Assembly (NCBI GenBank): GCA_021818955.1
Contig: JAKASR010000019.1
Span: 5,400 to 69,399 of the forward strand
Direction of reading: 5' to 3'
Length of the DNA: 64,000 nucleotides
From: Acidobacteriota bacterium
Lineage (GTDB): Bacteria > Acidobacteriota > Terriglobia > Terriglobales > SCQP01
The notes below the pieces were generated by a model. It searched no databases. It had not been told where the DNA came from and saw only the letters and a list, made by a program, of their open reading frames with translations. The translations under genes were made by a program, and so were the position numbers. Below are positions 7,052-30,438 of this stretch, piece by piece (the stretch's first letter is position 1; each line of letters starts with the position of its first letter).

Positions 7052-10000
7052 TCATGCCTCTTCTTCCTGCTCCGATGCAAGCCGCAGCTTCCCGCGCCGC
7101 CATTGCCGCTCTTTCAGCATCGCGAACAACACCGGCACCAGCAGCAGCACGCCCAGCGTCGAAGTTACCATGCCGCCCACCATGGGCGTCGCGATCGGTT
7201 TCATCACGTCGGAACCGATTCCACTCTCCCATAAAATCGGGCCCAGGCTGAAGATCACGGCGAAAACGGTCATCAGCTTGGGGCGCAGCCGCAGGACGGC
7301 GCCATCCATCGTGGCTTGATGTATATCTTCGCGCAACAGCGGCCCGCCGCGCGCCAGGCGCTCGTCCAGGGCCTCGTGCAGATACACCACCATCACGACT
7401 CCGGTCTCGACCGCGATGCCGAACAGCGCGATGTACCCTACCCAGACGGCGACGCTGAAGTTATAGCCCAGCAGCACTTGCAGCAGCAAGCCGCCGGTCA
7501 GCGCGAAAGCCGTGGGCATAATCAGGATGGCGGCTTCGGCCGCCGAATGGAAGGTCAGGTAGAGCAGCACGAAGATCAGGAAAAAGACTATCGGCAGAAT
7601 AATTTCCAGCCGCTTTTTCGCGTGTTCCTCGAATTTGTATTCTCCCGACCAGTGATAGCTGGCCCCGGCCGGCAACCGCAGCTTGCTGCGCAGGATGGCG
7701 TTGGCCTTCTGCACAAAGCCGCCATAATTGCTGGTGCTGAGATCCACAAACACGTAGCCGGTCAGTTGCCCGTCTTCGTCGCGGATGCCCGCCGGGCCGC
7801 GCGTGAACGTGATGGCGGCGACTTCCGCAATGGGAACTTGGGCGCCGCTCGGCGTGGGAATCAAGACTTGTTCGAGCGCCGGCAGATCGTCGCGGAAATC
7901 GCGGTTATAGCGCACGTTCACCGGAAAGCGTTCCCGGCCTTCGATGTTGGTGGCAATATCCTGCCCGCCAATCCCGCTGGTGATCACCCGTTGCACGTCG
8001 GCGACGGTCAGCCCGTAGCGCGCGGCCAGGGCGCGATGCACCCGGATGTTCACGTAGAAGCCTTGCGCCACGCGCTCGGCGAAGATCGAGCGCACGCCCG
8101 GCAGGCCGGAGAGCAGCGTTTGCACCTGCTCTCCCAGCGCCTGCACTTCGTCCAGGTTTGGCGCCTGGATCTTCATGCCGACCGGGGTCTTGATCCCGGT
8201 AAGTTCCATGTCCAGCCGGTTTTGGATGGGCATGGTCCAGGTGTTGGTCAGGCCCGGGAATTGCAACTTCGCGTCCATCGAGGCGATCAGCCGGTTGTAA
8301 GTCATGCCGGCCGGCCATTCCCGGCGCGGCTTCAGCCGGATGGTGGTGTCAAACATCGAAAGCGGGGCATTGTCGGTGGCGCTGTTGGAGCGTCCAATCG
8401 TGCCGAATACGCTCTTCACCTCGGGAAACGAGCGCAGGATGCGGTCCTGTTCCTGCAGCAAATTGGTCGCGGTGGTGATGGAAATGCCCGGATATGCGGT
8501 GGGCATGTACAGCGCCGCGCCTTCGTAGAAAGGCGGCATGAATTGGCTGCCGATGCGGCTGGCCAGCGGCGCCGTCGCCGCGATCAGGGCCACGCCCAGC
8601 AACAGCACCAGCAGCCGGTGGCGCAGGCAAAAGTTCAGCACCGGCCGGTAGATAAATTGGAAAAACCGCGATACCGGGTTGGCGCTTTCCGGCTTCAGCC
8701 GCCCGCGGATGAACAACGTCATCAGGATCGGGATCAGCGTGATGGAGAGCAGGGAGGAAAAGCCGATGGCCAGCGTCTTGGTCCAGGCCAGCGGCCGGAA
8801 CAACCGTCCTTCCTGCGCCTGCAGCAGAAAAACCGGTAAAAACGAGACCACGATGATGATCAGCGAGAAGAAAATCGGCGGCCCGACCTGCTTGGCGGCG
8901 CGCAACAAAATCCGGCTCCGTTCCCGCGCGCTGATGCCCGGTGCGGCCGGCGGCGAGGGCGGCGGCGCGGCTGCCACCGCGGAAGTCTCGCCGGTGACGA
9001 GGGGGCTGATGCCGGCAATGGGCCCGGCCGGATTCGGTTGCAGCTCAATATCCGCCGGCGGGGAGGGCGGCGTGCCGGTTGCAAGGCGGGCCTGCGCCTC
9101 GGAAAGATGCCGGTACCCGTTTTCCACCATGACAATTGCGGCATCCACCAGTACGCCGATCGCCAGCGCCAGCCCGCCCAGCGACATGATGTTGGCGCTG
9201 ACGTGAAAGTAGTACATCGGAATAAACGACGCGATCACCGCGATCGGCAGCGTCAGAATCGGTATCAGCGCCGAGCGGAAATGGAAAAGAAAAACGATGA
9301 TGACCAGGCTGACGATGAGGGCTTCTTCTATCAGGTCGCGCTTCAGCGTGGCGATGGATCGCTGGATCAGCCCCGAGCGGTCGTAGGCGGTGACGATTTT
9401 CACCCCTGGCGGAAGCGCGGCTTGGATTTCGCGGATTTTGGCCTTGACCCCCTGAATCACCTTCAACGCGTTCTGTCCATCGCGCATCACCACGATGCCG
9501 CCCACGGTTTCGCCCTGGCCGTTCCATTCCGCCACCCCGCGCCGGATATCGGGCCCGAAGCTGACCGTGCCCAGGTCGCCCACCAGCACCGGCGTGCCGT
9601 TATACACGCCCACGGGAATGTTGCGCAGGTCGTTCAGGGAGTGGAGATAACCCAGGCCGCGGACCATGTATTCCGCGCCGCTGAATTCCAGCAGCCGGCC
9701 GCCGACTTCGTTGGTCGAGGCGCGAACCCGCCGGATCACCTTCGCCAGCGGAATGTTATAGGCCAGCAGCTTGTTGGGATCCAGCTTGACCTGGTATTGT
9801 TTGACGAACCCGCCAATCGTCGCCACTTCCGCCACCCCCGGCACCGATTCCAGCCAGTAGCGGATATACCAATCCTGCAGCGTGCGCAGCCGGGCCAGGC
9901 TGGCGGTGTGGTGAGTGTCCTCGAGCACGTATTCATATACCCAGCCCGCGCCGGTCGCGTCCGGCCCCATCGTGGGGTGTACGCCCGGCGGCAATTGGCC

Positions 10001-10354
10001 TTGCAGTTGTTGCATGTATTCCAGCACCCGCGAGCGCGCCCAATAGAGATTGGTCCCGTGCTTGAACACGACAAATACGTAGGAATCGCCGAACATGGTT
10101 TCCGCGCGCACATTTTTGACGCGCGGCGCTGCCAGCAAAGTGGTGACTATCGGGTAAGTGACCTGGTCTTCGATCAGGTCGGGCGGCTGGCCGGCCCACT
10201 GCGTATGAATGATGACCTGGACGTCGGAAATATCCGGCAGCGCGTCCAGCGGCACGCGGTGCATTGCCCAGATGCCCGCCAGCACCAGCAGAAAGACCAG
10301 GATGAACACCAGGAACCGGTTGCGGCTGCAGAGATCGATCAATCGGGCAATCAT
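7052..10354 (-). CDS. cusA: CusA/SilA/CzcA-family heavy-metal RND efflux transporter
   Basis: PLDALPDISDVQVII, GPDATGAGWVYEY, DAAIVMVEN, ETGVVM, RLRPKLMT proton-relay motifs; 1100 aa. Confidence 0.95.
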   Translation of the reverse strand: MIARLIDLCSRNRFLVFILVFLLVLAGIWAMHRVPLDALPDISDVQVIIHTQWAGQPPDLIEDQVTYPIVTTLLAAPRVKNVRAETMFGDSYVFVVFKHGTNLYWARSRVLEYMQQLQGQLPPGVHPTMGPDATGAGWVYEYVLEDTHHTASLARLRTLQDWYIRYWLESVPGVAEVATIGGFVKQYQVKLDPNKLLAYNIPLAKVIRRVRASTNEVGGRLLEFSGAEYMVRGLGYLHSLNDLRNIPVGVYNGTPVLVGDLGTVSFGPDIRRGVAEWNGQGETVGGIVVMRDGQNALKVIQGVKAKIREIQAALPPGVKIVTAYDRSGLIQRSIATLKRDLIEEALIVSLVIIVFLFHFRSALIPILTLPIAVIASFIPMYYFHVSANIMSLGGLALAIGVLVDAAIVMVENGYRHLSEAQARLATGTPPSPPADIELQPNPAGPIAGISPLVTGETSAVAAAPPPSPPAAPGISARERSRILLRAAKQVGPPIFFSLIIIVVSFLPVFLLQAQEGRLFRPLAWTKTLAIGFSSLLSITLIPILMTLFIRGRLKPESANPVSRFFQFIYRPVLNFCLRHRLLVLLLGVALIAATAPLASRIGSQFMPPFYEGAALYMPTAYPGISITTATNLLQEQDRILRSFPEVKSVFGTIGRSNSATDNAPLSMFDTTIRLKPRREWPAGMTYNRLIASMDAKLQFPGLTNTWTMPIQNRLDMELTGIKTPVGMKIQAPNLDEVQALGEQVQTLLSGLPGVRSIFAERVAQGFYVNIRVHRALAARYGLTVADVQRVITSGIGGQDIATNIEGRERFPVNVRYNRDFRDDLPALEQVLIPTPSGAQVPIAEVAAITFTRGPAGIRDEDGQLTGYVFVDLSTSNYGGFVQKANAILRSKLRLPAGASYHWSGEYKFEEHAKKRLEIILPIVFFLIFVLLYLTFHSAAEAAILIMPTAFALTGGLLLQVLLGYNFSVAVWVGYIALFGIAVETGVVMVVYLHEALDERLARGGPLLREDIHQATMDGAVLRLRPKLMTVFAVIFSLGPILWESGIGSDVMKPIATPMVGGMVTSTLGVLLLVPVLFAMLKERQWRRGKLRLASEQEEEA

Positions 10355-10355
10355 G

Positions 10356-11924
10356 TTACCTGCCTCCGCCGGCGCTCAGGTTCAGTTGTTTTGAGGCGAT
10401 CACTTGTCCGCCGCGCTGCGCGGTAATCGTCACCTGCCAGTTCCCCTCCGCGGGAAGTTCGCCTCGCCCGCGGTAAATCCCGCCGCCCTGGTCGCTCAGG
10501 GCCACCAGCACGCGTTGCGCCGGCATGCCCATCGCCGGCATCGCCGCCATGAAAAACACCGCCTGCACCTGCGCGGCGTTAATCTCATGTCCCTGGGCGT
10601 CGGTAAGTTTGACCTGAAAGGTGTTGGCGCCTTTCTGCGGCGGTGAAGGCTGGCTGCTGAATGTGATCCGGGGTTGCGCCGCGCCGGACGGCCCGCCCGG
10701 CGGCGGCGGCGGCGGCAGAAACGACCCCATCGCCGCCTGCAGTTGGCTTTCCGAATCGATCAGGAAATTGGCCGAGGTGACGATGCGCTCGCCCTGCCGC
10801 AGCCCCTGCAACACGATGAAATCGTTGCCCGCCTGCGGCCCCACCACCACCGGCTGCGGCTGTAGATAACCGTTCCCGCGGTCTAAAAACGCCAACGATT
10901 GCGTGCCGGTTTGAAAAATCGCATTCGTCGGGACCACCAGTTGCCGCCCCAGGGGAATGTGCAAATCGACATTCACGAACATGCCCGGCCGCAATAACAA
11001 GCCGGCGTTGGCGAACACCAGCCGCACCCGTGCCGTGCGCGTGCTCATATTCACATTGGGATAAATAAAATTCACCCGCCCGGCAAACCTGCGGCCGGGG
11101 TAGGAATCCACCGTCAGCGTCGCCCGTTCGCCGGCTCGCACCTGGCCGAGATCGTTTTGATAGACCTGCGCATCCACCCAGACGGTGGAAAAATCGGCAA
11201 TCGTGTAAAGCCGGGTCGAAGGTTGCACGTACTGGTTCGGCAGCGCATTGCGTTCGGTGATGAAGCCGGTGGCGGGAGACTCGACCACCAGATACTGGCG
11301 GGCCTGGCCCGTGCGCTGCAGCCGCGCAATCTCGCCCGCCGGCAAATCCCATTGCCGCAGCCGTTCCAGCGTGGCGTTCACCAGCGATTTCGCCCCCGCC
11401 GCCACGCCTTCGACCGGGCTGCGGGCCAGCAGTTTTTGGTTTTGCAATGCCAGCAGGTATTCGCGCTCGGTGGTCAGCAAATCCGGACTGTAAATGGTGA
11501 AAAGCGGCTGCCCGCGCTTCACATGCTGGTAAGCGGCGTTGACATAAACCCGCTGGATCCAGCCGGAAAATCGGGTTTGAACATAGGCCTGCTTTTGCTC
11601 GTCCTCGGTAACGTTGCCGAACACGCGCAGATCGTCATGCACCCATTGCCGCTGCACCTTGCCGATCTCGACCCCGATGCGTTGCCGCCGCTGCGGCGAA
11701 AGCTGGATCGGCGCCAGCGCCGGTTGCGCCGCCGCCGGAGCGCTCATGCCGGGCATGTTGGCCATCGCCGCTGCCGGCGCGGCGGAAGCGGCGGCGGCGG
11801 TTGCCGGCGGCGTTGCCCCGCCCGGCGCGTTGGACTGCCGGCGCCACCACCACCAGCCGATTGCGCCCAGCAGCGCCAGGTTCAGCGCCAGCGCAATATA
11901 AAATGCCGCTCGATACGGTTTCAT
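10356..11924 (-). CDS. cusB: CusB-like RND periplasmic adaptor with a C-terminal YtkA/FixH-like domain
   Basis: N-terminal TM, Met-rich linker, V..GQPLFTIYSPDL...EYL, RTARVR...LRPGM, ERIVTSANFLIDSESQL; start placed at MKPYR. Confidence 0.92.
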   Translation of the reverse strand: MKPYRAAFYIALALNLALLGAIGWWWWRRQSNAPGGATPPATAAAASAAPAAAMANMPGMSAPAAAQPALAPIQLSPQRRQRIGVEIGKVQRQWVHDDLRVFGNVTEDEQKQAYVQTRFSGWIQRVYVNAAYQHVKRGQPLFTIYSPDLLTTEREYLLALQNQKLLARSPVEGVAAGAKSLVNATLERLRQWDLPAGEIARLQRTGQARQYLVVESPATGFITERNALPNQYVQPSTRLYTIADFSTVWVDAQVYQNDLGQVRAGERATLTVDSYPGRRFAGRVNFIYPNVNMSTRTARVRLVFANAGLLLRPGMFVNVDLHIPLGRQLVVPTNAIFQTGTQSLAFLDRGNGYLQPQPVVVGPQAGNDFIVLQGLRQGERIVTSANFLIDSESQLQAAMGSFLPPPPPPGGPSGAAQPRITFSSQPSPPQKGANTFQVKLTDAQGHEINAAQVQAVFFMAAMPAMGMPAQRVLVALSDQGGGIYRGRGELPAEGNWQVTITAQRGGQVIASKQLNLSAGGGR

Positions 11925-12018
11925 AATTCCGCTCCTGTCTGCATGCAATAAAACCATCGATAAAGACCCGGATCATTAAGGCGGAAAAAGGCTAATAGCG
12001 AGGCGCATAGCCCGTAGG

Positions 12019-12178
12019 GCGGGGCCGCCGGGTAATTTCTCGGAAATTGCCAAAAGAAATGCCGCGCGGCGGCCGCGGTGCAGATGGCCTTACAGCAGGC
12101 TCGCCGGGCATCCGCCAGCAAAACCGAAGCGATTGCGCCTGGAAGGCTCGAAGCCATGCTCGGTTGGTCGCCTCGCCT
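12019..12178 (+). repeat. 160-bp interspersed repeat, family A, copy 2
   Basis: Homologous to 6160-6319; lies between cusC-like and cusB. Confidence 0.85.
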
Positions 12179-13506
12179 CATCGGGTTAACTCCACCCCCA
12201 CCAGCGGTTCCAGTCGCGCCAGGGCAATCTCGTAGTTGGCCTTTTGCCGGTCGTATTTCACTTGAAAATCCAGCAGGTTGATGAAGTTGTCGAGCATCGT
12301 CAGAAAATCCACCTTGCCGCTTTCGTAGGCCGTGATCGAGGCATTCAGGGTTTGCGTCGATTGCGGCACGATGGCCTGGGAATAAAGCACGGCCAGTTGC
12401 GCCGCTTGCCGCAGCGCCAGGTATTGTTGCTTCACCAGGTAATTCACCGTCGTCCCCCGGTTGCTTTGAAAATCCCGGTCGCTCGTCAGCATGCGGCTGG
12501 CGGCCAGCACCTCCTGGCGTTGTTTGGCGCGGTAGAAAATGGGGATATTCAGCGTGACGAAGGCGCCTTGCATGTTCATCGGCGCCGCGCTGCGCTGGTA
12601 CATATAGCTGACGCTGAAATCCGGGTCGTAGCTCTTGTGGGCCAGCGCCAGCGCGCTTTGATCGCGCGCGATCAATTGTTGTTCCCGCTCGAGGCCGGTG
12701 TCGTGCGCCCGCGCCAGTTGATAAAGCTGGTGGAGGGTATAGGGCAAAGTTTTCATTGCCGGCGGCGCCGGCGCCCCCAGCGGAGTCTCCGGCGAGCGGT
12801 TCAACAAGGTGTTGATTCGCGCCGCCGCCGTGCGCTGTTCTTGCCGCAAGATCGTGACCCGCTCCAGCAGTTGCGACAGCTCCACTTGGCCTTTGAGCAC
12901 GTCCTCTTGCAGCCCTTGCCCCGATTCATAGCGGGTTTCGGCGATTTGCGTCAGCCGTTGCAATAAGGCGCGCGTGTTTTCGACAATCCGCAGCGCCTGG
13001 TAAAAATAGGCGTATTGGTAATAAGCCGTTTTGACATCCGCCCTCACCCGCCGTCGCGCCGCCTGGTAATCCCATCCGGCGGCGCGGCTGGTGTGCTCCG
13101 CCACCTGGCCTTGCAGCTTCAGCTTGCCGGGAAAGGGGAAGCGCTGCGTCGCGGTGATTTGGCGGTAGCTGGTCGCGGCATTGTCCTCCAGCGCGAAGGG
13201 CAAAGGCTTGCCCATCCAGCCGAGCGATACGGTCGGGTCGGGCAAGGCTTCGCTGGGACGCACGCGGGCGCGCAACGCCGCCGCTCGCCCGGCATAGGCC
13301 GCGATTTCCGGGTTTCTCGCCAGCGCCAGCCGCACCAGCGCCGCTAGCGATAGGGCGGGCGCCTGGGCGGTTGCCGCCGCCGGCTGTTTCAAGCGCGAGC
13401 CGGGCCGCGCCGCGAGCGGCTTCGCCCCGCCCGCTTGCCCTAGCGCTACTCCGGTGAATATCAGGCCCAATGCCGGCGTCAGCCGGCGCGCATGGTGTAA
13501 TTGCAT
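12178..13506 (-). CDS. TolC/CusC-family outer-membrane efflux protein
   Basis: LVRLALARNPEI, LPDP, QRFPFPGKLKL, AYESGKVDFLTMLD; first gene of the RND operon. Confidence 0.92.
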   Translation of the reverse strand: MQLHHARRLTPALGLIFTGVALGQAGGAKPLAARPGSRLKQPAAATAQAPALSLAALVRLALARNPEIAAYAGRAAALRARVRPSEALPDPTVSLGWMGKPLPFALEDNAATSYRQITATQRFPFPGKLKLQGQVAEHTSRAAGWDYQAARRRVRADVKTAYYQYAYFYQALRIVENTRALLQRLTQIAETRYESGQGLQEDVLKGQVELSQLLERVTILRQEQRTAAARINTLLNRSPETPLGAPAPPAMKTLPYTLHQLYQLARAHDTGLEREQQLIARDQSALALAHKSYDPDFSVSYMYQRSAAPMNMQGAFVTLNIPIFYRAKQRQEVLAASRMLTSDRDFQSNRGTTVNYLVKQQYLALRQAAQLAVLYSQAIVPQSTQTLNASITAYESGKVDFLTMLDNFINLLDFQVKYDRQKANYEIALARLEPLVGVELTR

Positions 13507-13531
13507 GGTCCATCTCCAGGAGTTTTCGCAT

Positions 13532-13597
13532 TGCGTCCGGCTTCGGCCGGACGTTTGCGAAAGCGTCAGCGCCTAAAAGTAAAAGCGGCCGAGCCGC
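13532..13597 (+). repeat. 66-bp structured repeat, family B, copy 1
   Basis: tgcgtccggcttcggccggacgtttgcgaaagcgtcagcgcctaaaagtaaaagcggccgagccgc; five same-length copies in the window. Confidence 0.92.
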
Positions 13598-13751
13598 CCA
13601 TCCGCGGTTAAAGGGGTGGCTTGATAAGTAGAGCGTCAGCGCCTGGCGGTAAATGCGGCCGAGCCGCCGCAAGGCGGGCTGCGGCAAGGCCAGATGCCGG
13701 TACTCGCCGGCGTTGCCAGCCGGCGATAGCGTCAGCGCTCGAGCGGGAAGA

Positions 13752-14156
13752 TCAGATTAAAAGCGGGGAAAACGAATGGCTTCCCGGAGATCGGTCCAGC
13801 GCGGTCAAGCGCTGGCTCCGGGGCGATGGATCTATAAAGACGGACGGGGTGGCGCTCGTCGCCCGGCCGGGCGGCGTGCTGGGTTGCAAGCTGGGCTGCA
13901 AGGGAGTGTGCGCCGCGGTCGTCAACCAGGCGCCAGAGCCGGTGCGAAGCTGGCAATAATTCAGGCAATTCCGCGACATCGGGGCCGAGGAACGCATCGG
14001 GGCCGATGTGCGCATCGGCGCTGGGCAGCAGCTCATCTTACCCCTGGCGCTCGAGGGGGAAGACAATGCCGCGAGGCAGCTCAAATTGGGAGCCAGCAGC
14101 GCCAGCAACACCGCCGCCGCCGCCAGGCTCGCCAGATTGCGTCTCGTGCCCTGCAT
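13752..14156 (-). CDS. Small secreted Cys/Met-rich protein upstream of the efflux operon (putative metal binding)
   Basis: Signal/TM segment followed by SCC..PM..PM..PM..C..YC; small Cys-rich genes commonly precede cusC-like genes. Confidence 0.55.
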   Translation of the reverse strand: MQGTRRNLASLAAAAVLLALLAPNLSCLAALSSPSSARGKMSCCPAPMRTSAPMRSSAPMSRNCLNYCQLRTGSGAWLTTAAHTPLQPSLQPSTPPGRATSATPSVFIDPSPRSQRLTALDRSPGSHSFSPLLI

Positions 14157-14263
14157 GAGTTTTATTGTACTGGGCTTTGCAAGCGTCATCATGCGCGCTT
14201 TGACCGCAATCAATTATAGTATCAGCCCCGCGGCTGCAGGGTAAGAAAGCGAGCTAAACCATA

Positions 14264-14543
14264 AGCGTTAACGGCCGCGTCGGACAGCAGTTTCGTCCTT
14301 GGCAATTTCGGAGAAATTGCCTCTAGTAATGCCCGCAGGCCGGTTTCGCGCGGGGTTCGTTAGGTCCCGCGCCTATTAACGACGATACAAAGCAATTCCG
14401 CAGGAATTGCATTAAGCAAGCTGGCAATTCCGCAGGAATTGCGCCCGGCAATGCCCGGCAGCCATGAGTATTCGCCCTGCGTCCGGTTTCGGCCGGACCC
14501 TTGCGAAAGCATCAGCGCCTAAAAGTAAAAGCGGCCGAACCGC
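14264..14543 (+). repeat. 280-bp composite direct repeat (contains family B copy 2 at 14478-14543)
   Basis: Aligns end to end with 14932-15211; contains palindromes ggcaatttc-gga-gaaattgcc and gcaattcc-gca-ggaattgc x2. Confidence 0.92.
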
Positions 14544-14629
14544 GCCGGGTTAAGTCGGCCACAAACCGGCCAGCGGCTCGCGGCAGCCGAGCACATGCAA
14601 AAATGCGCTAATCACGCATGGGCGGTCAC

Positions 14630-14857
14630 CTAGGCTGTGTGGGCGTATCGCTCCGGATTCTGGCGGAATTTTTTCTGGCAGCCGGGGCTGCAGAAATAAA
14701 TGGTGCGCCCGGCATGTTCCAGATGGCCTGTTGCGGCAGCGGCGGGAATGCGCATGCCGCAGACCGGATCGAGCGTGGTTTTCGGTTCCGGCGCCGGTTT
14801 CTGAGTGGGTGCTTCGCGTTTTTTAAAGCCAAACATTGTCTCGCCCTCTTCGCCCAC
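14630..14857 (-). CDS. YHS-domain protein (alternative start 14836)
   Basis: DPVCGM...HAGRTIYFCSPGC.KKF..NPERY, the canonical YHS signature. Confidence 0.9.
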   Translation of the reverse strand: MGEEGETMFGFKKREAPTQKPAPEPKTTLDPVCGMRIPAAAATGHLEHAGRTIYFCSPGCQKKFRQNPERYAHTA

Positions 14858-14931
14858 TCTACTTGAAGCGGCCCGGTTTCGGCCGTGACCGTAATCACGG
14901 CATCGGGCACGCTGGTCTGATGGGTACCTGT

Positions 14932-15211
14932 AGCGTTAACGGCCGAGTCGGACAGCAGTTTTTGTCATTGGCAATTTCGGTGAAATTGCCTGAAGCCATG
15001 CACGCAGGCCGAAGCGCGGGGTTCCAGTTAGGTCTAGCGCCTGGGAACGACAAAACAAAGCAATTCCGCAGGAATTGCATCAGGCAAGCCGGCAATTCCG
15101 CGGGAATTGCGCTCGACAATGCCCGGCAGCCATGAGTATTCGCCATGCGTCCGGTTTCGGCCGGACCCTTGCGAAAGCGTCAGCGCCTAAAAGTAAAAGC
15201 GGCCGAGCCGC
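14932..15211 (+). repeat. 280-bp composite direct repeat (contains family B copy 3 at 15146-15211)
   Basis: Second copy of 14264-14543; abuts the stop codon of the radical SAM gene. Confidence 0.92.
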
Positions 15212-16758
15212 TAATTCTGAACGAAACTGTCGCTTGTGAGCGCTGGCGTGCTCGCGGCCGGGGCATTCAGGAATGGCAGCGGTTTTGCCCTGAACAGCCG
15301 TAGGCAGGGCCGCGCCAGGTATGTGGCCCAACGCGCCGAACTTTGCAGCCGGGCGCTGTCGGTTGCAATCCCGGTATTGGCGTACATCTGCCGATATAGT
15401 TTCGAGATCAAGACGAACGCCATCCGGCCGCGCAGCGAGCGCACGCAAGCGGAACGTTTCCAGATGGCCTGGAAACTATAAAAGCGGTCCCATATTTCCT
15501 GCGTGCGGGCGCGAATCTCGTCGGCGCTCATGGCGGGATGCGGGACATAAACCTTGGGGCGGAGCGCCTGGGGGATCAACCAATGGCGTGTCAGCGGGAA
15601 ACCTGCGATCCGGGTGGGGTCGTCCTTCATCTTCTGTTCCCAATGGTTGAAATCCACCGTTCCGGGAAACGGCGTCAACATCAAAAATTGGGCGAAGGTG
15701 ACGCCGGCGCGTTTCGCCAGATCAAGGGTTGCGGCAAATGTCTGCGCGCGGTCGCTCGGCAAGCCGAAGATAAATGAGCCCAGCACGTGCAGGTCGTGCG
15801 CGCGAAAGGCGCGCAAACACCGCACCAAATCTTCTCCGGATGAATTGAATCCTTTGTAGACGTCCTTCAGGCCTTCGGGCGTAACCGATTCTATGCCGAC
15901 CAGGGCGCCTTTAATGTGCGCGCGCCGCATGGCTTCGAGAAATTCTGTGTCGTTGGCCGCTTCCATCGTGATCTGGGTGAAGAAAACGGTATCGGCGGGC
16001 AACTGCGCCAGGCGCGCCATCAGATCGAATCGTTCCGCCCGGATCGTCTCCAGTTCCGAGATGCGCTGGGCGTCATTTTGGCGGTAAGCCAGCCGCAGGT
16101 CTTCGAGCGATACCGGATAAAAATTGTCGTCCGCAAGCGCGATGAAACGAAAGCCGCGGCGCCGCAATTCGACAATTTCCTCCACCACGGGGGTGACATC
16201 CCGCTGTCGTGGACGTTGGCCATCCGTGCGCCACACCGAGCAAAACGAGCAGTGCTTGGGGCAGCCGCGCACCGTCTGCACCGACGCCCACATGTATCTT
16301 GCCGCGGGCAGCAGGTCCCAGCGCGCCGGCAGGAAGCGCGTGGCTTCGATCCTGCCGCCTTCATAAAGCGGCATTAAGCGGCCTGCGGTGTGATCGCGCA
16401 GCGCCTGGGGCCACGCCAGATCGCCATCGCCGCGAACCACCGCATGGCCGCCGCCCAAATCCCGCGCCTCTTGCGGGTATAAGCTTGCATGGATGCCGCC
16501 GAAAATCACCTGTGCGCCGCGTGCCCGGAGCTGCCGCCCCAACTCGTAGCCGCGCAGGGCATTCCCGGTGTGAATTCCTATTCCCACCACATCCCCCGCC
16601 TTAACGCTCTCCAAAGGCAACGGCTGCAAGGTTTCATCCGTGATTTGGGGGTCGCCATATTCCTGCGGGGTCGCCGCCGCGATGACATAAAGCCAACGCG
16701 GGGTGATGACGCCGATGCCGAAGGATACGTGGCTGGGGTTGACGATATGGATTTGCAT
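15211..16758 (-). CDS. B12-binding-domain radical SAM protein
   Basis: RGCPKHCSFC (CxxxCxxC), VIFGGIHASLYP, ADDNF, VGIES, GSFIFG; start placed at MQIHIV. Confidence 0.9.
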   Translation of the reverse strand: MQIHIVNPSHVSFGIGVITPRWLYVIAAATPQEYGDPQITDETLQPLPLESVKAGDVVGIGIHTGNALRGYELGRQLRARGAQVIFGGIHASLYPQEARDLGGGHAVVRGDGDLAWPQALRDHTAGRLMPLYEGGRIEATRFLPARWDLLPAARYMWASVQTVRGCPKHCSFCSVWRTDGQRPRQRDVTPVVEEIVELRRRGFRFIALADDNFYPVSLEDLRLAYRQNDAQRISELETIRAERFDLMARLAQLPADTVFFTQITMEAANDTEFLEAMRRAHIKGALVGIESVTPEGLKDVYKGFNSSGEDLVRCLRAFRAHDLHVLGSFIFGLPSDRAQTFAATLDLAKRAGVTFAQFLMLTPFPGTVDFNHWEQKMKDDPTRIAGFPLTRHWLIPQALRPKVYVPHPAMSADEIRARTQEIWDRFYSFQAIWKRSACVRSLRGRMAFVLISKLYRQMYANTGIATDSARLQSSARWATYLARPCLRLFRAKPLPFLNAPAASTPALTSDSFVQN

Positions 16759-16846
16759 AAATTGAATCGGCTTTGAATTTTCAAGCAACCCAGCGGGGCG
16801 CGGCGCTCACGGGGTTAGATTAGGGCCGAATGATGGCAGGATGTCC

Positions 16847-16890
16847 AAGCAATTCCGCGGGAATTGCATCAAGCAAGCCGGCAATTCCGC
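16847..16890 (+). repeat. Partial copy of the 280-bp repeat (gcaattcc palindrome module)
   Basis: aagcaattccgcgggaattgcatcaagcaagccggcaattccgc matches the internal part of the 280-bp repeats. Confidence 0.75.
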
Positions 16891-16949
16891 CGTCCGCCGT
16901 CGCGTACGGTGCCACGGCTGAAATCGCAAGCGTCGCTGGCAATCTGCGC

Positions 16950-18902
16950 TCAGTTCGCACGGGCCAGGTGGGCGAGGAAAACCAGGCAAAGCTGGGCGTC
17001 GCGAAACAGGCTGAAGGCGAGCCGCAGCGGAGGTATCTGAAACCAGCGCCGCTGCGTCCACCGCTGCCTGACCGTGTGCCAGAAGCAGTCCAGGTCGGCG
17101 CGGGTGAGCACTTTGTCCGAAGCCAGCGAGGGGTAATACCTGGTCCACAACAGGAAAAGCTTCGAAGGCACGCGCAGCGACGGGAAATACGCCTTGGCTT
17201 GCCTGTAGGCGAGTTGCAAATCGGCCAATTTGAGCCGCCCGTAGGTGGCCGCGCGGATTTTGCACAGTTCTTCGATCACTCGCTGCTCGGCTTCGCCTCG
17301 CGGCCGGGTCTGCAGCCACAGCTCTTCCATTTCGAAGAGCAGGCGAAACATGCTCGTGAGATGCGCGCGAATCTCGCGCGCCCGCGATACGGCATATTGC
17401 CGGCGGCTCGGGATGGCATATCCCGGCCGGCGGTTCTTGCGGCCCTTCAGCCGGAAAAAGCCGCACATCATCGGATGCCGCCCTTCCGTCGCGATGGCGT
17501 TCTTGTACCACATGAACCGCAGCAAATTGTTCCAGTAATCTTTCCGCGGGCAGCGCTGCAGGATCGCCTTCATGTTCTCGAAACTGTAGAACGCCCGCCA
17601 GGCTTCGCGATAAAGGGCTTCCCAATCGCCGCCTTTCAGGTGGACGTGGGCCGTTACCGGGTGATGGGAATCGTAGCGGTTGAAGTCCGGGTGCATCCAT
17701 TCCCCGCGGCGCGACATCGTCAGGTGGTCCTGCGAGCCGGGCAGCGGCATGAGCATAAAAAACGACGCATGGTCCGGGCGCACCTCGCCCATCAGCTGCG
17801 CCAGATCGCGGCGGACCGATTCCGCCGTGTCCTGGGGGAAGCCGATGATATAGCCGACGTGCGTCGAAATCTCCGCCTCGCGGTAGGCTTCGATCAATTG
17901 CGGGTATTCCTGCACGTGGTTTTGCCTTTTGCCCGCGGCCTTTAAGTTCTCGGCGTTTAAGCTCTCCATCCCGATGAACACGCTCGAGCACCCCGCCCGG
18001 CGCGCCTTGGCGATGAAGTTCGGAATCTTCCAGGAAAGTACATCCACCTGCATCATGAACTTCACCGGAATTTGCTCCTCCTCCCGCAGCCGGATGAGGG
18101 CGTCAAAAATAATTTCCCAGCTTCGGTTCCGCGCAAAATTATCGTCGGTGAAGAAATAGAACGTGATGCGGTGGGCTTGATAGTTGTGCCGGATCGTCTC
18201 CGCAATGTACTCCGCGGAACGGAAGCGCATCTTGCGGCCCTGAACATTGATGATCGTGCAGAAGCTGCACTCGAAAGGGCAGCCCCGCCCGCAATCCAGC
18301 GTGCCGAAATTGGACGCGATGAATTTGCGCAAGTAGTCCTTGCGTATTACCGGCAGCGGTTTATCGGATAAGTCCGGCTTGTGGTTGGTGTAATCGTACA
18401 GGGGCTTCAGGCGGCCGTTCATGGCATCGCTCAGCAGATCGCCCCAGGTTTCTTCCACTTCGCCCTTCACGATCGTTACCCCGTCATCCATGAGTTGTTG
18501 GATGTCCGGCGGTATGTCCGGCAGCAGCGCCAGATAGCCGCTCACATGAAAGCCGCCAATCATCACGGTCAACCCCGCGCGGCGAAATGTCCGGGCCAGA
18601 TCGGCGGCGCGCGGAAACTGATTGGTTTGAACGCCCACCAGGCAGACGATCGTCTTGCTCTGGCCCCCGCGCTCGGAACGGCAGATGCGTTGCACCGGAA
18701 TGCGGTCCACCGTCTCGTCGAGCACGTGGGTTGCGATCCGCACGGATTCCCCTAGCCGCTTTTGCGCCGCCACGTCTTCCGTCAGGCCCGCCAGGCAGGC
18801 TAACGTGTTGCTCGGCAGAACGCCGCGCCAGTGCCGTACTACATAGCCATCGTCGTCATATTGTGTCGGCTTGATCAGATAAAGGTTCAGCTTTTTTAGC
18901 AT
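16950..18902 (-). CDS. B12-binding-domain radical SAM protein (IKPxxYDDDGY N-terminal family)
   Basis: RGCPFECSFC, MIGGFHVSG, FTDDNF, VFIGMES, GYIIGFP. Confidence 0.9.
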   Translation of the reverse strand: MLKKLNLYLIKPTQYDDDGYVVRHWRGVLPSNTLACLAGLTEDVAAQKRLGESVRIATHVLDETVDRIPVQRICRSERGGQSKTIVCLVGVQTNQFPRAADLARTFRRAGLTVMIGGFHVSGYLALLPDIPPDIQQLMDDGVTIVKGEVEETWGDLLSDAMNGRLKPLYDYTNHKPDLSDKPLPVIRKDYLRKFIASNFGTLDCGRGCPFECSFCTIINVQGRKMRFRSAEYIAETIRHNYQAHRITFYFFTDDNFARNRSWEIIFDALIRLREEEQIPVKFMMQVDVLSWKIPNFIAKARRAGCSSVFIGMESLNAENLKAAGKRQNHVQEYPQLIEAYREAEISTHVGYIIGFPQDTAESVRRDLAQLMGEVRPDHASFFMLMPLPGSQDHLTMSRRGEWMHPDFNRYDSHHPVTAHVHLKGGDWEALYREAWRAFYSFENMKAILQRCPRKDYWNNLLRFMWYKNAIATEGRHPMMCGFFRLKGRKNRRPGYAIPSRRQYAVSRAREIRAHLTSMFRLLFEMEELWLQTRPRGEAEQRVIEELCKIRAATYGRLKLADLQLAYRQAKAYFPSLRVPSKLFLLWTRYYPSLASDKVLTRADLDCFWHTVRQRWTQRRWFQIPPLRLAFSLFRDAQLCLVFLAHLARAN

Positions 18903-18946
18903 GCCCCCGGCTCCTTCCAGGCTGGCGGCGCCTTGAGTATTCGCCC

Positions 18947-19012
18947 TGCGTCCGGTTTCGGCCGGACCTTTGTGAAAGCGTCAGCGCCTAAAAATAAAAG
19001 CGGCCGAGCCGC
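18947..19012 (+). repeat. 66-bp structured repeat, family B, copy 4
   Basis: Same length as copies 1-3; also shares the upstream tgagtattcgccc with copy 2 (copy 3 has tgagtattcgcca). Confidence 0.9.
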
Positions 19013-19453
19013 CGCTTTCCTGTTTTTCATTGCCTCAATCGCTTGTTTCTCACGCCATGCGCATGGGGCCGCGCCCGGAAGATGAATCCGACAATATTTC
19101 GAGGACGGCCGGTTTTTGCCCTTAGAGCCGCGAAGACATCTTCATCGTTGCCCTTGAGTCATCTTAACCGGAATTTCCATGATCGCGCCGGCCCGGCCGC
19201 CGGCATCAACCGGGCCGCCCCGGAACGTCATTAGCCGAACCGCCCGCGTCGAGCCCTAGTTATCGAACCCTGGTTATCGTCATGGGCAATATGGGCAATT
19301 CGCGAATAATGTTTTGAAACGAAATCCTTCACCGGGTCGTCAGTATTACAGTTTTGCGCCCCGGCTAAGGTGGTTGCGGCGGTCGTGACCTCGCAAAACG
19401 GAAATGCACGGGGCTTGGCATCGCGCTTATTTCAGGATGAATGCTGAACGCCT

Positions 19454-19642
19454 ATGGCCGTGAAACGGCTGCTGCTTGCCGCGGCGATGGGACTAATGAT
19501 TATCTTCGCCTCGGGAGCCTTTTTGGTTTTGCTGATCGCGATCACGGCGCGCCCGCGGCCGCTGACCATTTTCTCCAGCGTCGCCGTATTGGCCGCCAGC
19601 GCATGGTTCTTGCGCGCTCTCGCCCGCTGGTATGGCCGCTAG
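19454..19642 (+). CDS. Small two-TM membrane protein
   Basis: 62 aa, two hydrophobic segments. Confidence 0.5.
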   Translation: MAVKRLLLAAAMGLMIIFASGAFLVLLIAITARPRPLTIFSSVAVLAASAWFLRALARWYGR

Positions 19643-19732
19643 AAGCGCGCCGCAAAGTAATAGCGGCCGAGCCGCTCTTGTAGGGCTTCAGAGCGGGCAT
19701 ATATAATTAAGGTTCTCTGAGGTAAGCCTCGC

Positions 19733-20332
19733 ATGCGTATCGGTTTTTCCCCTTCCCGCGGCAAATTGGCCTGGGCGCTAAGCGCTATCGTCGGCGTCTC
19801 TATATTCGTCTTCCTGATCGCCGGCAACTCGCCCGCTCCGGCGAAAACTACACCCCAGCCGGCCCCGCGGCCGGCCTTGTCCGCCGGCGGCATGGCGGCT
19901 ATGCCCGGCATGCCTGCTATGCCGGGGCGAAGCCTGCAGCCAAGCTCGAGCGCCCCGCAATCCGGACCGGCCTGGCCCACCCCGGCGTATCATCGCCATT
20001 CCCCCCGCGGCCCCCTGCCCGCGACTCTGCCCCCTTCGCAATTTTCCGACCCCCGCGTCCAGGCGGTGTACGCCATGGCCGCCAAAATCGAAAAAGTTCT
20101 TTACCAGCAGCCTTGCTATTGCCGCTGCGACCGTGAATTAGGTCACACCAGCCTGCTTTCCTGCTATATCGGCACGCACGCCTCGGTTTGCCAGGTCTGC
20201 CTGATGGAGGCCGCTTTCGCCTATCAACAGACGAAAAAGGGTCAAACCCCGGCGCAAATTCGCCACGAAATCAAGCGCGGCGATTGGCGCACGCTCAATC
20301 TCGAGCGGGTGATCGCCCGTTATGCCCGCTGA
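19733..20332 (+). CDS. PCYCGC-motif protein with Met-rich linker
   Basis: QQPCYCRC...GHTSLLSCY...HASVCQVC; N-terminal TM; GMAAMPGMPAMPG linker. Confidence 0.8.
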   Translation: MRIGFSPSRGKLAWALSAIVGVSIFVFLIAGNSPAPAKTTPQPAPRPALSAGGMAAMPGMPAMPGRSLQPSSSAPQSGPAWPTPAYHRHSPRGPLPATLPPSQFSDPRVQAVYAMAAKIEKVLYQQPCYCRCDRELGHTSLLSCYIGTHASVCQVCLMEAAFAYQQTKKGQTPAQIRHEIKRGDWRTLNLERVIARYAR

Positions 20333-20377
20333 TAATCCAGGTCGCCATTTCCCCGGAGCATAGAAGAGTTGTTGCCG

Positions 20378-20443
20378 CGCGTCCGGCTTCGGCCAGGCGT
20401 TTGCGAAAGCGTCAGCGCCTAAAAGGAATAGCGGCCGCGCCGC
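20378..20443 (+). repeat. 66-bp structured repeat, family B, copy 5 (most diverged)
   Basis: cgcgtccggcttcggccaggcgtttgcgaaagcgtcagcgcctaaaaggaatagcggccgcgccgc. Confidence 0.85.
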
Positions 20444-28452: not shown

Positions 28453-28557
28453 TCAGACTTCGGGTTTCGCGCAAGCGCCTGCCACAAACCCCGCCAGGTC
28501 CGGAAGGAAGCAACGGTAGTGGATTGGGCCCTGTGCAGCGAAGGGCCCGAAGTCTGA
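28453..28557 (+). ncRNA. ffs: Signal recognition particle RNA (4.5S)
   Basis: Conserved CAGGTCCGGAAGGAAGCA core; terminal stem tcagacttcggg / cccgaagtctga. Confidence 0.93.
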
Positions 28558-30362: not shown

Positions 30363-30438
30363 GTGGTTGAAACGGCTCGCCTCGAAAGCGAGTGTACGGG
30401 GAACCGTACCGGGGGTTCGAATCCCTCTCTCTCCGCCA
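30349..30438 (+). tRNA. tRNA-Ser: tRNA-Ser(CGA), long variable arm; prophage integration target
   Basis: GGAGAGA/TCTCTCC acceptor stem, GCCA end, anticodon arm ctcgc-ctCGAaa-gcgag, GGTTCGAATCC T-loop. Confidence 0.97.

What the first reader, a model, noticed from the sequence alone, without database searches (positions are those of the whole stretch)
13532..20443. Five exactly 66-bp, same-orientation structured repeats punctuating a gene block
Seen: copies at 13532, 14478, 15146, 18947 and 20378, with no indels. On the + strand they form a gtccgg(c/t)-TTCG-gccggac hairpin (C(UUCG)G in copies 1 and 5), a short stem capped by GCGA that varies to GTGA (both GNRA), and a gcggc/gccgc hairpin. On the - strand the last hairpin plus TTTTACTTTT reads as an intrinsic terminator. 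Almost every gene from 13.5 to 20.4 kb is separated by a full or partial copy. Inference: a mobile structured RNA or terminator cassette, or a recombination-site array shuffling accessory genes.
Basis: partly seen in the sequence, partly recalled or inferred. Interest (0 to 1): 0.62.

Follow-up and report, generated by a model that had tools for sequence, protein, structure and literature searches.

The report
Strand-polar mosaic intergenic repeat family
The five repeats are real, but they are local copies of a non-coding hairpin repeat present about 400 times in this soil acidobacterial genome; nearly all copies point the same way along the chromosome whatever the neighbouring genes do, so this is small mobile (selfish) DNA that carries a terminator-like end, not a device specific to this gene block.

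Summary
Five ungapped copies lie at the stated coordinates. Their conserved core is 83 nt rather than 66, and two copies are the heads of 285-nt long forms that bracket a YHS gene. Two head-only remnants and one solo hairpin unit were missed.

The copies are not a local array. The same unit gives 409 nhmmer hits (about 315 full-length) in the 3.8-Mb Acidobacteriota draft genome. In its 28-genome family it occurs only in this genome, one congener and one other genus.

The element is modular:
- a fixed 5' "head": a GC hairpin, a T-tract and AGGCGCTGACGC, which looks like a terminator;
- a long hairpin;
- optional variable-number hairpin arrays;
- a fixed tail, ...CCGACTCGGCCGTTAACGCTT.

It has no terminal inverted repeats and no target-site duplication. 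It matches no Rfam family, shows no significant covariation, and has no strand-specific wobble bias.

Orientation ignores gene direction: 50% of nearby coding sequence is co-oriented. Orientation is instead strongly chromosome-polar. Of 370 neighbouring pairs, 330 are concordant, and orientation tracks third-codon-position A/T strand asymmetry (rho 0.91).

I found no cognate Y1 transposase, RAYT, Ssn nuclease or group II/retron-type reverse transcriptase.

Best reading: a new BIME/BOX-like mosaic repeat. It probably spreads or is retained through replication-linked single-stranded DNA, and it incidentally supplies terminators to co-oriented genes. The integron-like and RNA-gene readings are not supported.

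The parts
13515..13597 (-). Copy 1, short form (head plus long hairpin; the CTTCGG-loop subfamily). It ends 8 nt before the ATG of the outer-membrane efflux gene (start at 13506). The GGAG upstream of that ATG lies in the element's 3' end.
13632..13670 (-). Head-only copy of a second subfamily: the same first ~36 nt, then the start of a CCCCATCAAGCCACCC-type hairpin.
14259..14543 (-). Copy 2, long form (~285 nt). In order: head, long hairpin, two GCAATTCC-NNN-GGAATTGC units, a GCGCGGGAC...CCCCGCGC hairpin, one GGCAATTTC...GAAATTGCC unit, and the tail ...CCGACGCGGCCGTTAACGCTTATGG.
14927..15211 (-). Copy 3, long form (~285 nt, about 88-91% identical to copy 2). Its first base completes the TAG stop codon of the 525-aa radical SAM gene.
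16847..16890 (-). Solo internal hairpin unit (GCAATTCCCGCGGAATTGC plus linker) in the spacer between the two radical SAM genes. It has no head.
18930..19012 (-). Copy 4, short form (the GTGA variant), upstream of the 650-aa radical SAM gene.
19647..19676 (-). Head-only remnant between a 62-aa membrane-protein ORF (+) and the PCYCGC/CYCXC gene (+).
20361..20443 (-). Copy 5, short form and the most diverged (80%). It lies between the PCYCGC gene and metK, both on the + strand, so it is antisense to its neighbours. The orthologous spacer in the congener G001 is ~93 nt shorter and lacks it.
14630..14836 (-). YHS-domain gene (68 aa), bracketed by the two long forms. This is context, not part of the repeat.
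   Evidence: PF04945, E 1.6e-13
15211..18902 (-). Two B12-binding radical SAM genes (15211-16788 and 16950-18902). These are context; no orthologue was found in three related genomes.

Best explanation
The five repeats belong to a lineage-restricted, high-copy, non-coding mosaic repeat family of the same general kind as BIME/REP, pneumococcal BOX or Correia/ERIC elements.

Anatomy, read on the window's minus strand:
- Head: GCGGCTCGGCCGC, then TTTTACTTTT, then AGGCGCTGACGC.
- An imperfect long hairpin: TTTCGCAAAGGTCCGG-CCGAAA-CCGGACGCATGGCGAA.
- The end of the short form: ...TACTCATGG.
- Long forms add, in order: 0-5 copies of a 32-nt GCAATTCCTGCGGAATTGC unit, a fixed GCGCGGGAC...CCCCGCGC hairpin, 0-3 GGCAATTTC...GAAATTGCC units, and a fixed tail ...CTGTCCGACTCGGCCGTTAACGCTT.

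Shown:
- The family is dispersed, modular and non-coding.
- Copies differ in presence between related genomes.
- Truncated copies almost always keep the head.
- Internal-deletion derivatives keep both head and tail.
- Orientation is independent of neighbouring genes but strongly concordant along the chromosome, and it is tied to strand compositional asymmetry.

Inferred:
- The element is non-autonomous mobile DNA.
- It is copied or retained on one replication strand, most simply through hairpinned single-stranded DNA at the fork. This is the mechanism of IS200/IS605 elements and the one proposed for REP/BIME.
- The enzyme responsible was not identified.
- As a by-product, the head gives a Rho-independent-type terminator to any gene that runs into it. 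That applies to the minus-strand genes of this block (copies 1-4) but not to copy 5.
- The 3' end sometimes supplies a ribosome-binding site.
- The unusual local density (7 heads in 7 kb, none in the other 57 kb) goes with an accessory, non-syntenic metal/radical-SAM block. Such a block would tolerate insertions.
For: Dispersal:
- 312 blastn and 409 nhmmer hits lie on 38 of 47 contigs.
- A covariance model finds the unit in only 3 of 28 family genomes: G000 at least 151 (capped), G001 13 and G005 23-30.

Modularity and deletion derivatives:
- 115 of 315 full heads are followed by the tail at 90-420 nt, with variable unit numbers.
- 85 truncated copies are nearly all anchored at the head.

Presence/absence between genomes:
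- The copy 5 site is empty in G001.
- A metagenome contig 83% identical to G000 C12 has a copy where G000 has none.

Orientation:
- Intergenic-context classes match the genome background, and coding co-orientation is 0.50.
- 330 of 370 adjacent pairs are concordant (p 7e-58). Whole contigs run 29/0, 0/27 and 1/24.
- Genes co-oriented with the element have coding-strand AT3 skew -0.09, against -0.26 for anti-oriented genes (p 2e-74). The GC3 skews are -0.015 and -0.091 (p 2e-22).
- Per contig, net orientation against AT3 asymmetry gives rho 0.91.
- The polarity is replicated in G001 and G005: 9 of 9 same-contig pairs are concordant.

Other:
- Every copy in the window has a terminator-like head.
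- The genes between copies are single-copy.
Against: - No mobilising enzyme was found.
  - Pfam Y1_Tnp is absent from G000 and G005.
  - The RAYT of G001 sits in its own, unrelated REP array.
  - HUH motif scans were negative.
  - The only reverse transcriptase is an RT-Cas1 fusion.
  - The only small GIY-YIG gene is a degraded fragment without flanking copies.
  - The Y2/IS91 search was uninformative.
- The assembly is a 96%-complete draft, so absence of an enzyme is not proof.
- There are no terminal inverted repeats and no target-site duplication, and only two empty-site comparisons. Transposition itself is therefore not demonstrated.
- Which replication strand carries the element is unresolved. 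The element's strand is G-rich, as leading strands usually are. But the single rRNA operon and rpoBC run opposite to it, and all 12 copies on the dnaA contig point towards dnaA.
- Polarity could reflect selection rather than mechanism.
Confidence: 0.72

Rival explanations
1. A selected, polar chromosomal architecture motif. The copies would be kept in one orientation per replichore because they do something for the host that depends on direction. Candidates are unidirectional terminators that stop transcription in one direction relative to fork movement, or binding sites for a nucleoid or segregation protein, comparable to KOPS or to BIME-IHF/gyrase sites.
For: - Orientation coherence is extreme and independent of genes.
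- The head is the part that survives in 85 truncated copies and looks like a terminator.
- The tail contains the 8-nt palindrome CGTTAACG.
Against: - The element is absent from 25 of 28 genomes of the same family, so it is not a conserved host function.
- Copy number differs about 10- to 30-fold between congeners.
- Copies decay by ordinary mismatches.
- Only about 55% of heads face a gene's 3' end.
Confidence: 0.1
2. A family of structured RNAs (a cis-regulatory leader or a small RNA), read on the window's + strand. The UUCG- and GNRA-like loops would then be functional RNA motifs.
For: - C(UUCG)G and GCGA/GTGA/GCAA loop variants are present.
- The fold is more stable than shuffled sequences, with z from -2.5 to -4.9.
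- Some copies abut start codons.
Against: - No Rfam family matches, even at E 10.
- Paired cells are 82.1% against 81.4% in shuffles, and there is no excess of compensatory pairs.
- G-T and A-C mismatches are equally frequent.
- Both strands fold equally well.
- Orientation is unrelated to neighbouring genes.
- Variable-number internal units and head-anchored truncations are not expected of an RNA gene.
Confidence: 0.06
3. An integron-like or other site-specific recombination array. The copies would be recombination sites (like attC) that shuffle the accessory genes between them.
For: - Nearly every gene in the 7-kb block is separated by a copy in the same orientation.
- 285-nt direct repeats bracket the YHS gene.
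- The block is not syntenic with the congener.
Against: - Copies lie on 38 of the 47 contigs, mostly between ordinary genes.
- There is no inverted R''/R' (RYYYAAC...GTTRRRY) core pair in the unit (sequence).
- The genes between copies are single-copy in the genome.
- Copy 5 lies between conserved syntenic genes.
Confidence: 0.02
4. Ordinary duplicated terminators with no mobility. The similarity would reflect local duplication or gene conversion of a species-typical terminator.
For: - The head has a 5-bp GC stem, a triloop and a T-tract.
- Many heads start at or within a few bases of a stop codon.
Against: - About 400 near-identical copies on 38 of 47 contigs carry 50-400 nt of extra conserved non-terminator modules.
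- 45% of heads do not follow a co-oriented gene.
- Copies differ in presence between related genomes.
Confidence: 0.05

Closest known systems
BOX elements of Streptococcus pneumoniae (boxA-boxB(n)-boxC; Croucher et al. 2011, PMC3049150)
   Same: - Non-coding, intergenic and high-copy.
- Fixed end modules with a variable number of an internal hairpin unit.
- Restricted to a few close relatives.
- Interpreted as parasitic DNA that affects co-transcribed genes.
   Different: - The sequences are unrelated and the phylum is different.
- This element has two separate variable-number arrays plus a terminator-like head.
- It has no inverted terminal similarity.
- It has a strong chromosome-strand polarity, which to my knowledge has not been described for BOX.
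REP/BIME elements with RAYT (TnpA_REP) and REPINs (PMC3333891, PMC3116915)
   Same: - Hairpin-forming intergenic repeats in hundreds of copies, arranged as mosaics.
- Proposed to move as single-stranded DNA.
- They can act as terminators or RNA stabilisers.
   Different: - REPs are palindromes of 20-40 nt with a 5' GTAG or CGTC tag, usually in inverted pairs, and a cognate RAYT gene is flanked by them.
- These units are 83-400 nt and lie in direct orientation only.
- No RAYT is present in G000 or G005, and the RAYT of G001 is flanked by a different REP.
IS200/IS605 elements and their transposase-less derivatives; transposition coupled to the replication fork (PMC5027513)
   Same: - No terminal inverted repeats and no target duplication.
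- Hairpins at or near both ends, with related end sequences (CGGCCGAG in both head and tail).
- Strong orientation bias relative to replication.
   Different: - No Y1 transposase or TnpB was detected.
- No conserved 4-5 nt target next to the left end.
- The internal variable-number arrays are not a feature of these elements.
Class 3 HUH-Y1 genes with atypical high-copy hairpins in Acidobacteria (about 600 in Solibacter usitatus; Quentin et al. 2018, PMC6006769)
   Same: - Same phylum.
- Hundreds of atypical hairpin repeats.
- A CnGA tetranucleotide is described at the foot of those hairpins. Here CTGA, CCGA, CGGA or CAGA occupies positions 29-32 in 266 of 282 copies.
   Different: - In this element the CnGA forms the loop of a small GCG/CGC hairpin, not a 5' foot.
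- No protein with the class 3 motifs (NHVH ... YV[VI]xEQ) was found in six-frame scans.
Correia (NEMIS) and ERIC elements.
   Same: Small intergenic repeats that are co-transcribed with neighbours and can bring terminators, promoters or processing sites.
   Different: Those are classical MITEs with terminal inverted repeats and a TA duplication. Both features were tested here and not found.
NTS/SRM hairpin repeats and the Ssn single-strand nuclease (PMC11893778)
   Same: - Oriented hairpin repeats clustered around particular genes.
- The internal GCAATTCC...GGAATTGC unit resembles the ATTCCC...GGGAAT core of dRS3/NTS.
   Different: - There is no CGTC-type 5' tag matching the SRM pattern.
- No intact ssnA-like gene is present. 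The only small GIY-YIG ORF is broken and is not flanked by copies.

Membership tests
MITE (miniature inverted-repeat transposable element) | Terminal inverted repeats | tested here: not met
   The head GCGGCTCGGCCGCTTTT... has no inverted match at either 3' end (...ACTCATGG or ...GTTAACGCTT). The head and tail share CTCGGCCG only as a direct repeat.
MITE (miniature inverted-repeat transposable element) | Target-site duplication of fixed length | tested here: not met
   For 115 long forms, the longest shared flank words have the same distribution as in shuffled pairings. The two outliers (12 and 14 nt) are a tandem array and a single case.
REP/BIME-RAYT system | A cognate Y1 (RAYT) gene flanked by the repeats | tested here: not met
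   PF01797 gives no hit in G000 or G005. The one hit in G001 is flanked by an unrelated 21-nt REP array, and the covariance model finds no copy there. The assemblies are drafts.
REP/BIME-RAYT system | A short palindrome with a 5' GTAG/CGTC tag, typically in inverted doublets | tested here: not met
   The units are 83-400 nt and neighbours lie in direct orientation (330 of 370 pairs). CGTC occurs next to the long hairpin on the reverse strand, but not as a conserved terminal tag.
IS200/IS605-derived non-autonomous element | Orientation bias relative to replication | tested here: met
   Orientation tracks strand asymmetry at third codon positions (p 2e-74; per-contig rho 0.91) and is independent of gene direction.
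IS200/IS605-derived non-autonomous element | A TnpA (Y1 HUH) present in the genome, and a conserved tetra- or pentanucleotide target at the left end | tested here: not met
   No Y1 transposase was found. The flank just outside the head shows only a weak A preference (0.45 and 0.37).
BOX-type modular repeat | Fixed end modules with a variable number of an internal unit | tested here: met
   The head and tail are fixed. There are 0-5 copies of the 32-nt GCAATTCC unit and 0-3 copies of the GGCAATTTC unit. This matches the architecture only; there is no sequence relationship and no membership.
Integron attC array | Inverted R''/L''-L'/R' core sites (RYYYAAC...GTTRRRY) in a single array next to intI/attI | tested here: not met
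   The unit has no such inverted cores. Copies lie on 38 of the 47 contigs. No search for intI was run.
Intrinsic (Rho-independent) terminator | A GC-rich stem-loop followed by a U-tract, downstream of a co-oriented gene | tested here: inconclusive
   The sequence criterion is met by every head in the window. Only 168 of 303 heads face a gene's 3' end.
Any Rfam RNA family | A match to a curated covariance model | tested here: not met
   No repeat copy matches at gathering score in the window. Only chance-level hits appear at E up to 10 over 13400-15300.
Ssn/SRM system | An SRM motif (HGTCWY...) and an ssnA (GIY-YIG) gene flanked by the repeats | tested here: not met
   Besides a UvrC-sized ORF, the only GIY-YIG hit is an 83-aa frame with an internal stop, next to a tRNA and without flanking copies.

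The most novel reading that the evidence does not exclude
The family may represent a so far unrecognised mode of propagation of non-coding DNA. On this reading it is a head-anchored, non-TIR, modular element that is copied or kept strictly on one replication strand. The enzyme responsible would be none of those known to act on hairpinned single-stranded DNA, since no Y1/RAYT, Ssn or group II/retron-type reverse transcriptase is detectable. The process would seed hundreds of one-directional terminators across a replichore. The head-anchored truncations would then be a footprint of a polar copying process that starts at the head, in the manner of rolling-circle or one-ended transposition.
Probability: 0.2. 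Interest if true: 0.7.

Novelty: new variant of a known kind. Interest (0 to 1): 0.42.

Why it matters
For this window, the result removes a tempting but wrong reading. The gene block is not organised by a dedicated RNA or recombination system.

For the genome, the family occupies roughly 1-2% of the DNA. It breaks short-read assemblies: many contigs end in copies. It probably terminates or insulates transcription of many genes.

More generally, the family combines hundreds of young copies, near-perfect strand polarity that is independent of genes, and no recognisable partner enzyme. That makes it a clean natural system for asking how REP-like repeats spread, and whether replication-strand polarity comes from mechanism or from selection. 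In fragmented metagenome-assembled genomes, the copies could also serve as markers of replication direction.

Tried and rejected
Repeat and RNA tests
- Rfam, at gathering score and at E up to 10, gave nothing on the repeats.
- RNAalifold on 47 diverse copies gave no meaningful consensus.
- Counts on two hand-drawn structures did not clearly exceed column shuffles.
- A sigma-54 or sigma-70 promoter inside the unit was considered by eye and with the scan, and found no support.

Searches for a partner enzyme
- Pfam Y1_Tnp in the own genome and in the family.
- Inspection of the RAYT locus of G001, which carries a different REP.
- Regular-expression scans for HUH...Y motifs, including the class 3 signature. 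All were negative.
- RVT_1: the only hit is an RT-Cas1 fusion.
- Y2_Tnp: uninformative, because the controls did not ring.
- GIY-YIG/Ssn: a degraded fragment only.

Target-site duplication and target motif: none.

Locating the origin, to decide between leading and lagging strand
- The dnaA contig, DnaA-box clusters, tRNA orientation and marker genes gave conflicting or weak signals.

Strain-level comparison of this block
- The only other contig carrying the radical SAM gene is 2 kb long and ends inside the flanking repeats.

Metagenome scans
- The first pattern found nothing. The second found three short contigs from one sample.

Sequencing runs


Full report
**1. The observation**

The repeat finder on 12-22 kb returns one family of five ungapped copies at 13515-13597, 14461-14543, 15129-15211, 18930-19012 and 20361-20443. 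They are 80-100% identical to the reference copy over 83 nt.

- GTCCGG(C/T)TTCGGCCGGAC;
- the GCGA loop becoming GTGA in copy 4;
- the GCGGC/GCCGC hairpin;
- TTTTACTTTT following that hairpin on the minus strand.

The consensus terminator scan flags the head of every copy on the minus strand.

- Copies 2 and 3 are the first 83 nt of ~285-nt repeats (14259-14543 and 14927-15211) that bracket a 68-aa YHS-domain gene (14630-14836, minus strand).
- Head-only copies lie at 13632-13670 and 19647-19676.
- A solo internal hairpin unit lies at 16847-16890.

Six of the seven spacers between 13.5 and 20.5 kb hold a head-bearing copy. The other 57 kb of the window has none.

**2. It is a genome-wide family**

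The window is C23:5400-69399 of a 3.8-Mb, 47-contig draft that is 96% complete and 62% G+C. The relatives of its MetK protein are Acidobacteriota MAGs.

The 83-nt unit gives 312 blastn hits of at least 60 nt on 35 contigs. It gives 409 nhmmer hits on 38 contigs, about 315 of them essentially full-length. That is one copy per ~9 kb.

A covariance model built from 47 diverse copies finds the unit in only 3 of the 28 genomes of the family:
- its congener G001, 13 hits;
- G005, in another genus, 23-30 hits.

Two pattern scans of the metagenome collection found nothing, and then three short contigs from one sample. I found no paper describing the family.

**3. Anatomy**

I call the window's minus strand "forward". 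Aligning all copies with their flanks shows a sharp boundary at the first base of the head hairpin and a ragged 3' side.

The short form reads GCGGCTCGGCCGC TTTTACTTTT AGGCGCTGACGC TTTCGCAAAGGTCCGGCCGAAACCGGACGCATGGCGAA TACTCATGG.

In 115 of 315 copies this is followed, in order, by:
- CTGCCGGGCATTGCCGGGC;
- 0-5 tandem 32-nt units containing GCAATTCCTGCGGAATTGC;
- a fixed hairpin GCGCGGGACCTAACAGGAACCCCGCGC;
- 0-3 units containing GGCAATTTCTTCGAAATTGCC;
- a fixed tail AACTGCTGTCCGACTCGGCCGTTAACGCTT.

Internal-deletion derivatives join the head directly to downstream modules and keep the tail.

Eighty-five truncated copies almost all start at position 1 of the head and stop at scattered positions. 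Copies that lack the head are rare.

A second subfamily shares the first ~36 nt and then carries a different long hairpin (CCCCATCAAGCCACCC...GGGTAGCTTGATGGGG). The partial copy at 13632-13670 is of this type.

There are no terminal inverted repeats. The flanks show no target-site duplication beyond chance and only a weak A preference just before the head. Many heads begin at or overlap a stop codon. The first G of copy 3, for example, completes the TAG of the 525-aa radical SAM gene.

**4. Structure: DNA or RNA?**

As single-stranded DNA, both strands fold into the same three hairpins with similar stability, with z from -2.5 to -4.9.

On 47 diverse copies from three genomes, the hairpins are 82% paired, against 81.4% after column shuffling. 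There is no clear excess of compensatory changes. An alternative short stem does no better.

Across 282 copies, G-T mismatches (tolerated on the forward strand) and A-C mismatches (tolerated on the reverse strand) are equally common: 16 and 18 in the head, 24 and 39 in the inner stem.

No Rfam model matches.

The fold is therefore conserved because the copies are young, not because pairing is visibly under selection. Nothing singles out one strand as a functional RNA.

**5. Relation to genes**

Using rough ORF calls, copies fall in co-directional, convergent and divergent spacers in the same proportions as all spacers. Within co-directional spacers there is a modest excess of the terminator-competent orientation, 99 against 66. 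The coding sequence within 2-25 kb is 50% co-oriented with the element.

In this window the minus-strand genes run into heads of copies 1-4:
- the outer-membrane efflux gene;
- a 153-aa Cys/Met-rich ORF;
- the YHS gene;
- two B12-type radical SAM genes.

Those copies can plausibly terminate transcription of these genes. Copy 5 lies antisense between two plus-strand genes (PCYCGC/CYCXC and metK).

The segments between copies are single-copy in the genome, apart from one paralogue hit for the radical SAM gene. The repeats therefore do not mobilise these genes as cassettes.

**6. Presence or absence in relatives**

From the PCYCGC gene rightwards, the window is syntenic with G001. To the left it is not, and the radical SAM gene has only ~27-31% identical paralogues in G001, G004 and G005.

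The PCYCGC-metK spacer of G001 is ~93 nt shorter and lacks copy 5. The sequence GCCGCGGTAAAAAA next to the head is conserved in both genomes.

A metagenome contig 83% identical to G000 C12:103.6-105.3 kb has a head where G000 has none.

These two comparisons fit gain or loss of copies, but two is a small number.

**7. Chromosome-wide polarity**

The shared orientation of the five copies is not a property of the gene block.
- Of 370 neighbouring pairs on the same contig, 330 have the same orientation (p 7e-58). Pairs more than 20 kb apart are still 72% concordant. Whole contigs run 29/0, 0/27, 1/24, 0/17 and 13/0.
- Orientation correlates with strand composition measured only inside genes, and most strongly at third codon positions.
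- To separate this from gene direction, I compared coding-strand skews. For the 803 genes co-oriented with nearby copies, AT3 skew is -0.09 and GC3 skew is -0.015. For the 757 anti-oriented genes the values are -0.26 and -0.091. The p values are 2e-74 and 2e-22.
- Per contig, net orientation against gene-corrected AT3 asymmetry gives Spearman 0.91 (p 7e-11). For GC3 it is 0.47.
- Orientation switches along large contigs coincide with local skew changes.
- The polarity recurs in the other two genomes: all 9 same-contig neighbouring pairs in G001 and G005 are concordant.

The forward strand is therefore the A-rich, slightly G-rich strand of a replication-type asymmetry.

Which replication strand that is remains open. 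G>C usually marks the leading strand. Against that, the single rRNA operon (C43, minus) and rpoBC (C37, minus) run opposite to the local copies, and tRNA genes show no preference. All 12 copies on the dnaA contig also point towards dnaA, including one in the spacer just upstream of it. DnaA-box clusters are weak.

**8. Search for a partner enzyme**

- Pfam Y1_Tnp (IS200/IS605 TnpA and RAYT) has no hit in G000 or G005. It has hits in 11 of the 28 family genomes, with no relation to the presence of the repeat.
- The 252-aa RAYT of G001 is flanked by its own 21-nt GGGGACGTCCTGGGGAAAACT arrays and by no copy of this element.
- Quentin et al. (PMC6006769) describe class 3 HUH-Y1 genes in Acidobacteria with hundreds of atypical hairpins and a CnGA foot. 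Here CTGA, CCGA, CGGA or CAGA occupies positions 29-32 in 266 of 282 copies, but as a hairpin loop. Six-frame scans for the class 3 motifs found nothing convincing.
- The only reverse transcriptase is an RT-Cas1 fusion next to cas6.
- The only small GIY-YIG (Ssn-like; PMC11893778) frame is broken, lies beside a tRNA and has no flanking copies.
- The IS91-type search was uninformative.

**9. Interpretation**

The evidence fits a lineage-restricted, recently expanded, non-autonomous mosaic repeat. In architecture it is closest to pneumococcal BOX (PMC3049150). In hairpin content it is closest to REP/BIME (PMC3333891). In polarity it is closest to IS200/IS605 elements, which insert into and excise from the lagging-strand template (PMC5027513). 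It fails the defining tests of each of these families, so I do not file it as a member of any.

The most economical mechanism is propagation or retention through hairpinned single-stranded DNA at the replication fork, starting from the head. That step is inferred, not shown. Selection for a polar host function is the main alternative.

The terminator-like head is probably the main effect the copies have on the genes of this window.

**10. Earlier notes of this scan**

After I had established dispersal and modularity, a look-up showed that other agents had described the same family in other windows of this genome as BOX/BIME-like. After I had found the polarity, a second look-up showed similar "replication-polar" repeats noted in other Terriglobales genomes. 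These notes agree with my results but are not independent evidence. Their leads (class 3 HUH, Ssn, IS200 arms) were tested here and not met.

Noticed in passing
window 7052-14213 and 14630-20332: The block looks like an accessory metal-handling island. On the minus strand it holds an RND pump (7052-10354), a CusB-like adaptor with a YtkA domain (10356-11957) and an outer-membrane factor (12178-13506). These are followed by a Cys/Met-rich 153-aa ORF with a weak DUF2946 match, a YHS gene and two B12-binding radical SAM genes. A CYCXC/PCYCGC protein lies on the plus strand. The radical SAM genes have no orthologue in three related genomes.
   Followed up: partly
G000 C28:103301-106906 (L120): An RT-Cas1 fusion (698 aa) lies next to a Cas6 gene, which suggests a type III CRISPR adaptation module able to acquire spacers from RNA. 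It is the only reverse transcriptase in the assembly.
   Followed up: partly
G001 C40:755-1851 (L139): This is a classical REPtron. A 252-aa RAYT-like gene (1061-1819, minus strand) is flanked by about 18 tandem 21-nt GGGGACGTCCTGGGGAAAACT units on one side and an inverted copy on the other. It is unrelated to the repeat studied here.
   Followed up: partly
window 13632-13670; genome-wide, e.g. C43:130810 and C36:52069: A second repeat subfamily shares the 36-nt head but continues into a different long hairpin (CCCCATCAAGCCACCC...GGGTAGCTTGATGGGG). The head therefore behaves as an exchangeable module.
   Followed up: partly
G000 C36:46378-46877: One copy of the repeat sits in the divergent spacer immediately upstream of dnaA. 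All 12 copies on that contig point towards dnaA, which does not fit a simple model with oriC next to dnaA.
   Followed up: partly
G000, whole genome: The strand asymmetry of this genome is carried mainly by A/T at third codon positions (difference 0.17 between gene classes) and only weakly by G/C (0.076). Genes show almost no strand preference (51.5% co-oriented with the repeats).
   Followed up: partly
G000 C38:1233-1439 (L143): A degraded small GIY-YIG ORF with an internal TGA lies in an AT-rich stretch directly downstream of a tRNA gene. It is probably the remnant of an integrated element.
   Followed up: no
G000 C22:2658-2887: Three head-to-tail copies with a 73-nt period (positions 1-73 of the unit repeated) show that the family also expands by local tandem duplication.
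   Followed up: no
window 28458-28555 and 30349-30435: A bacterial small SRP RNA and a tRNA gene, both on the plus strand. These are ordinary features.
   Followed up: no
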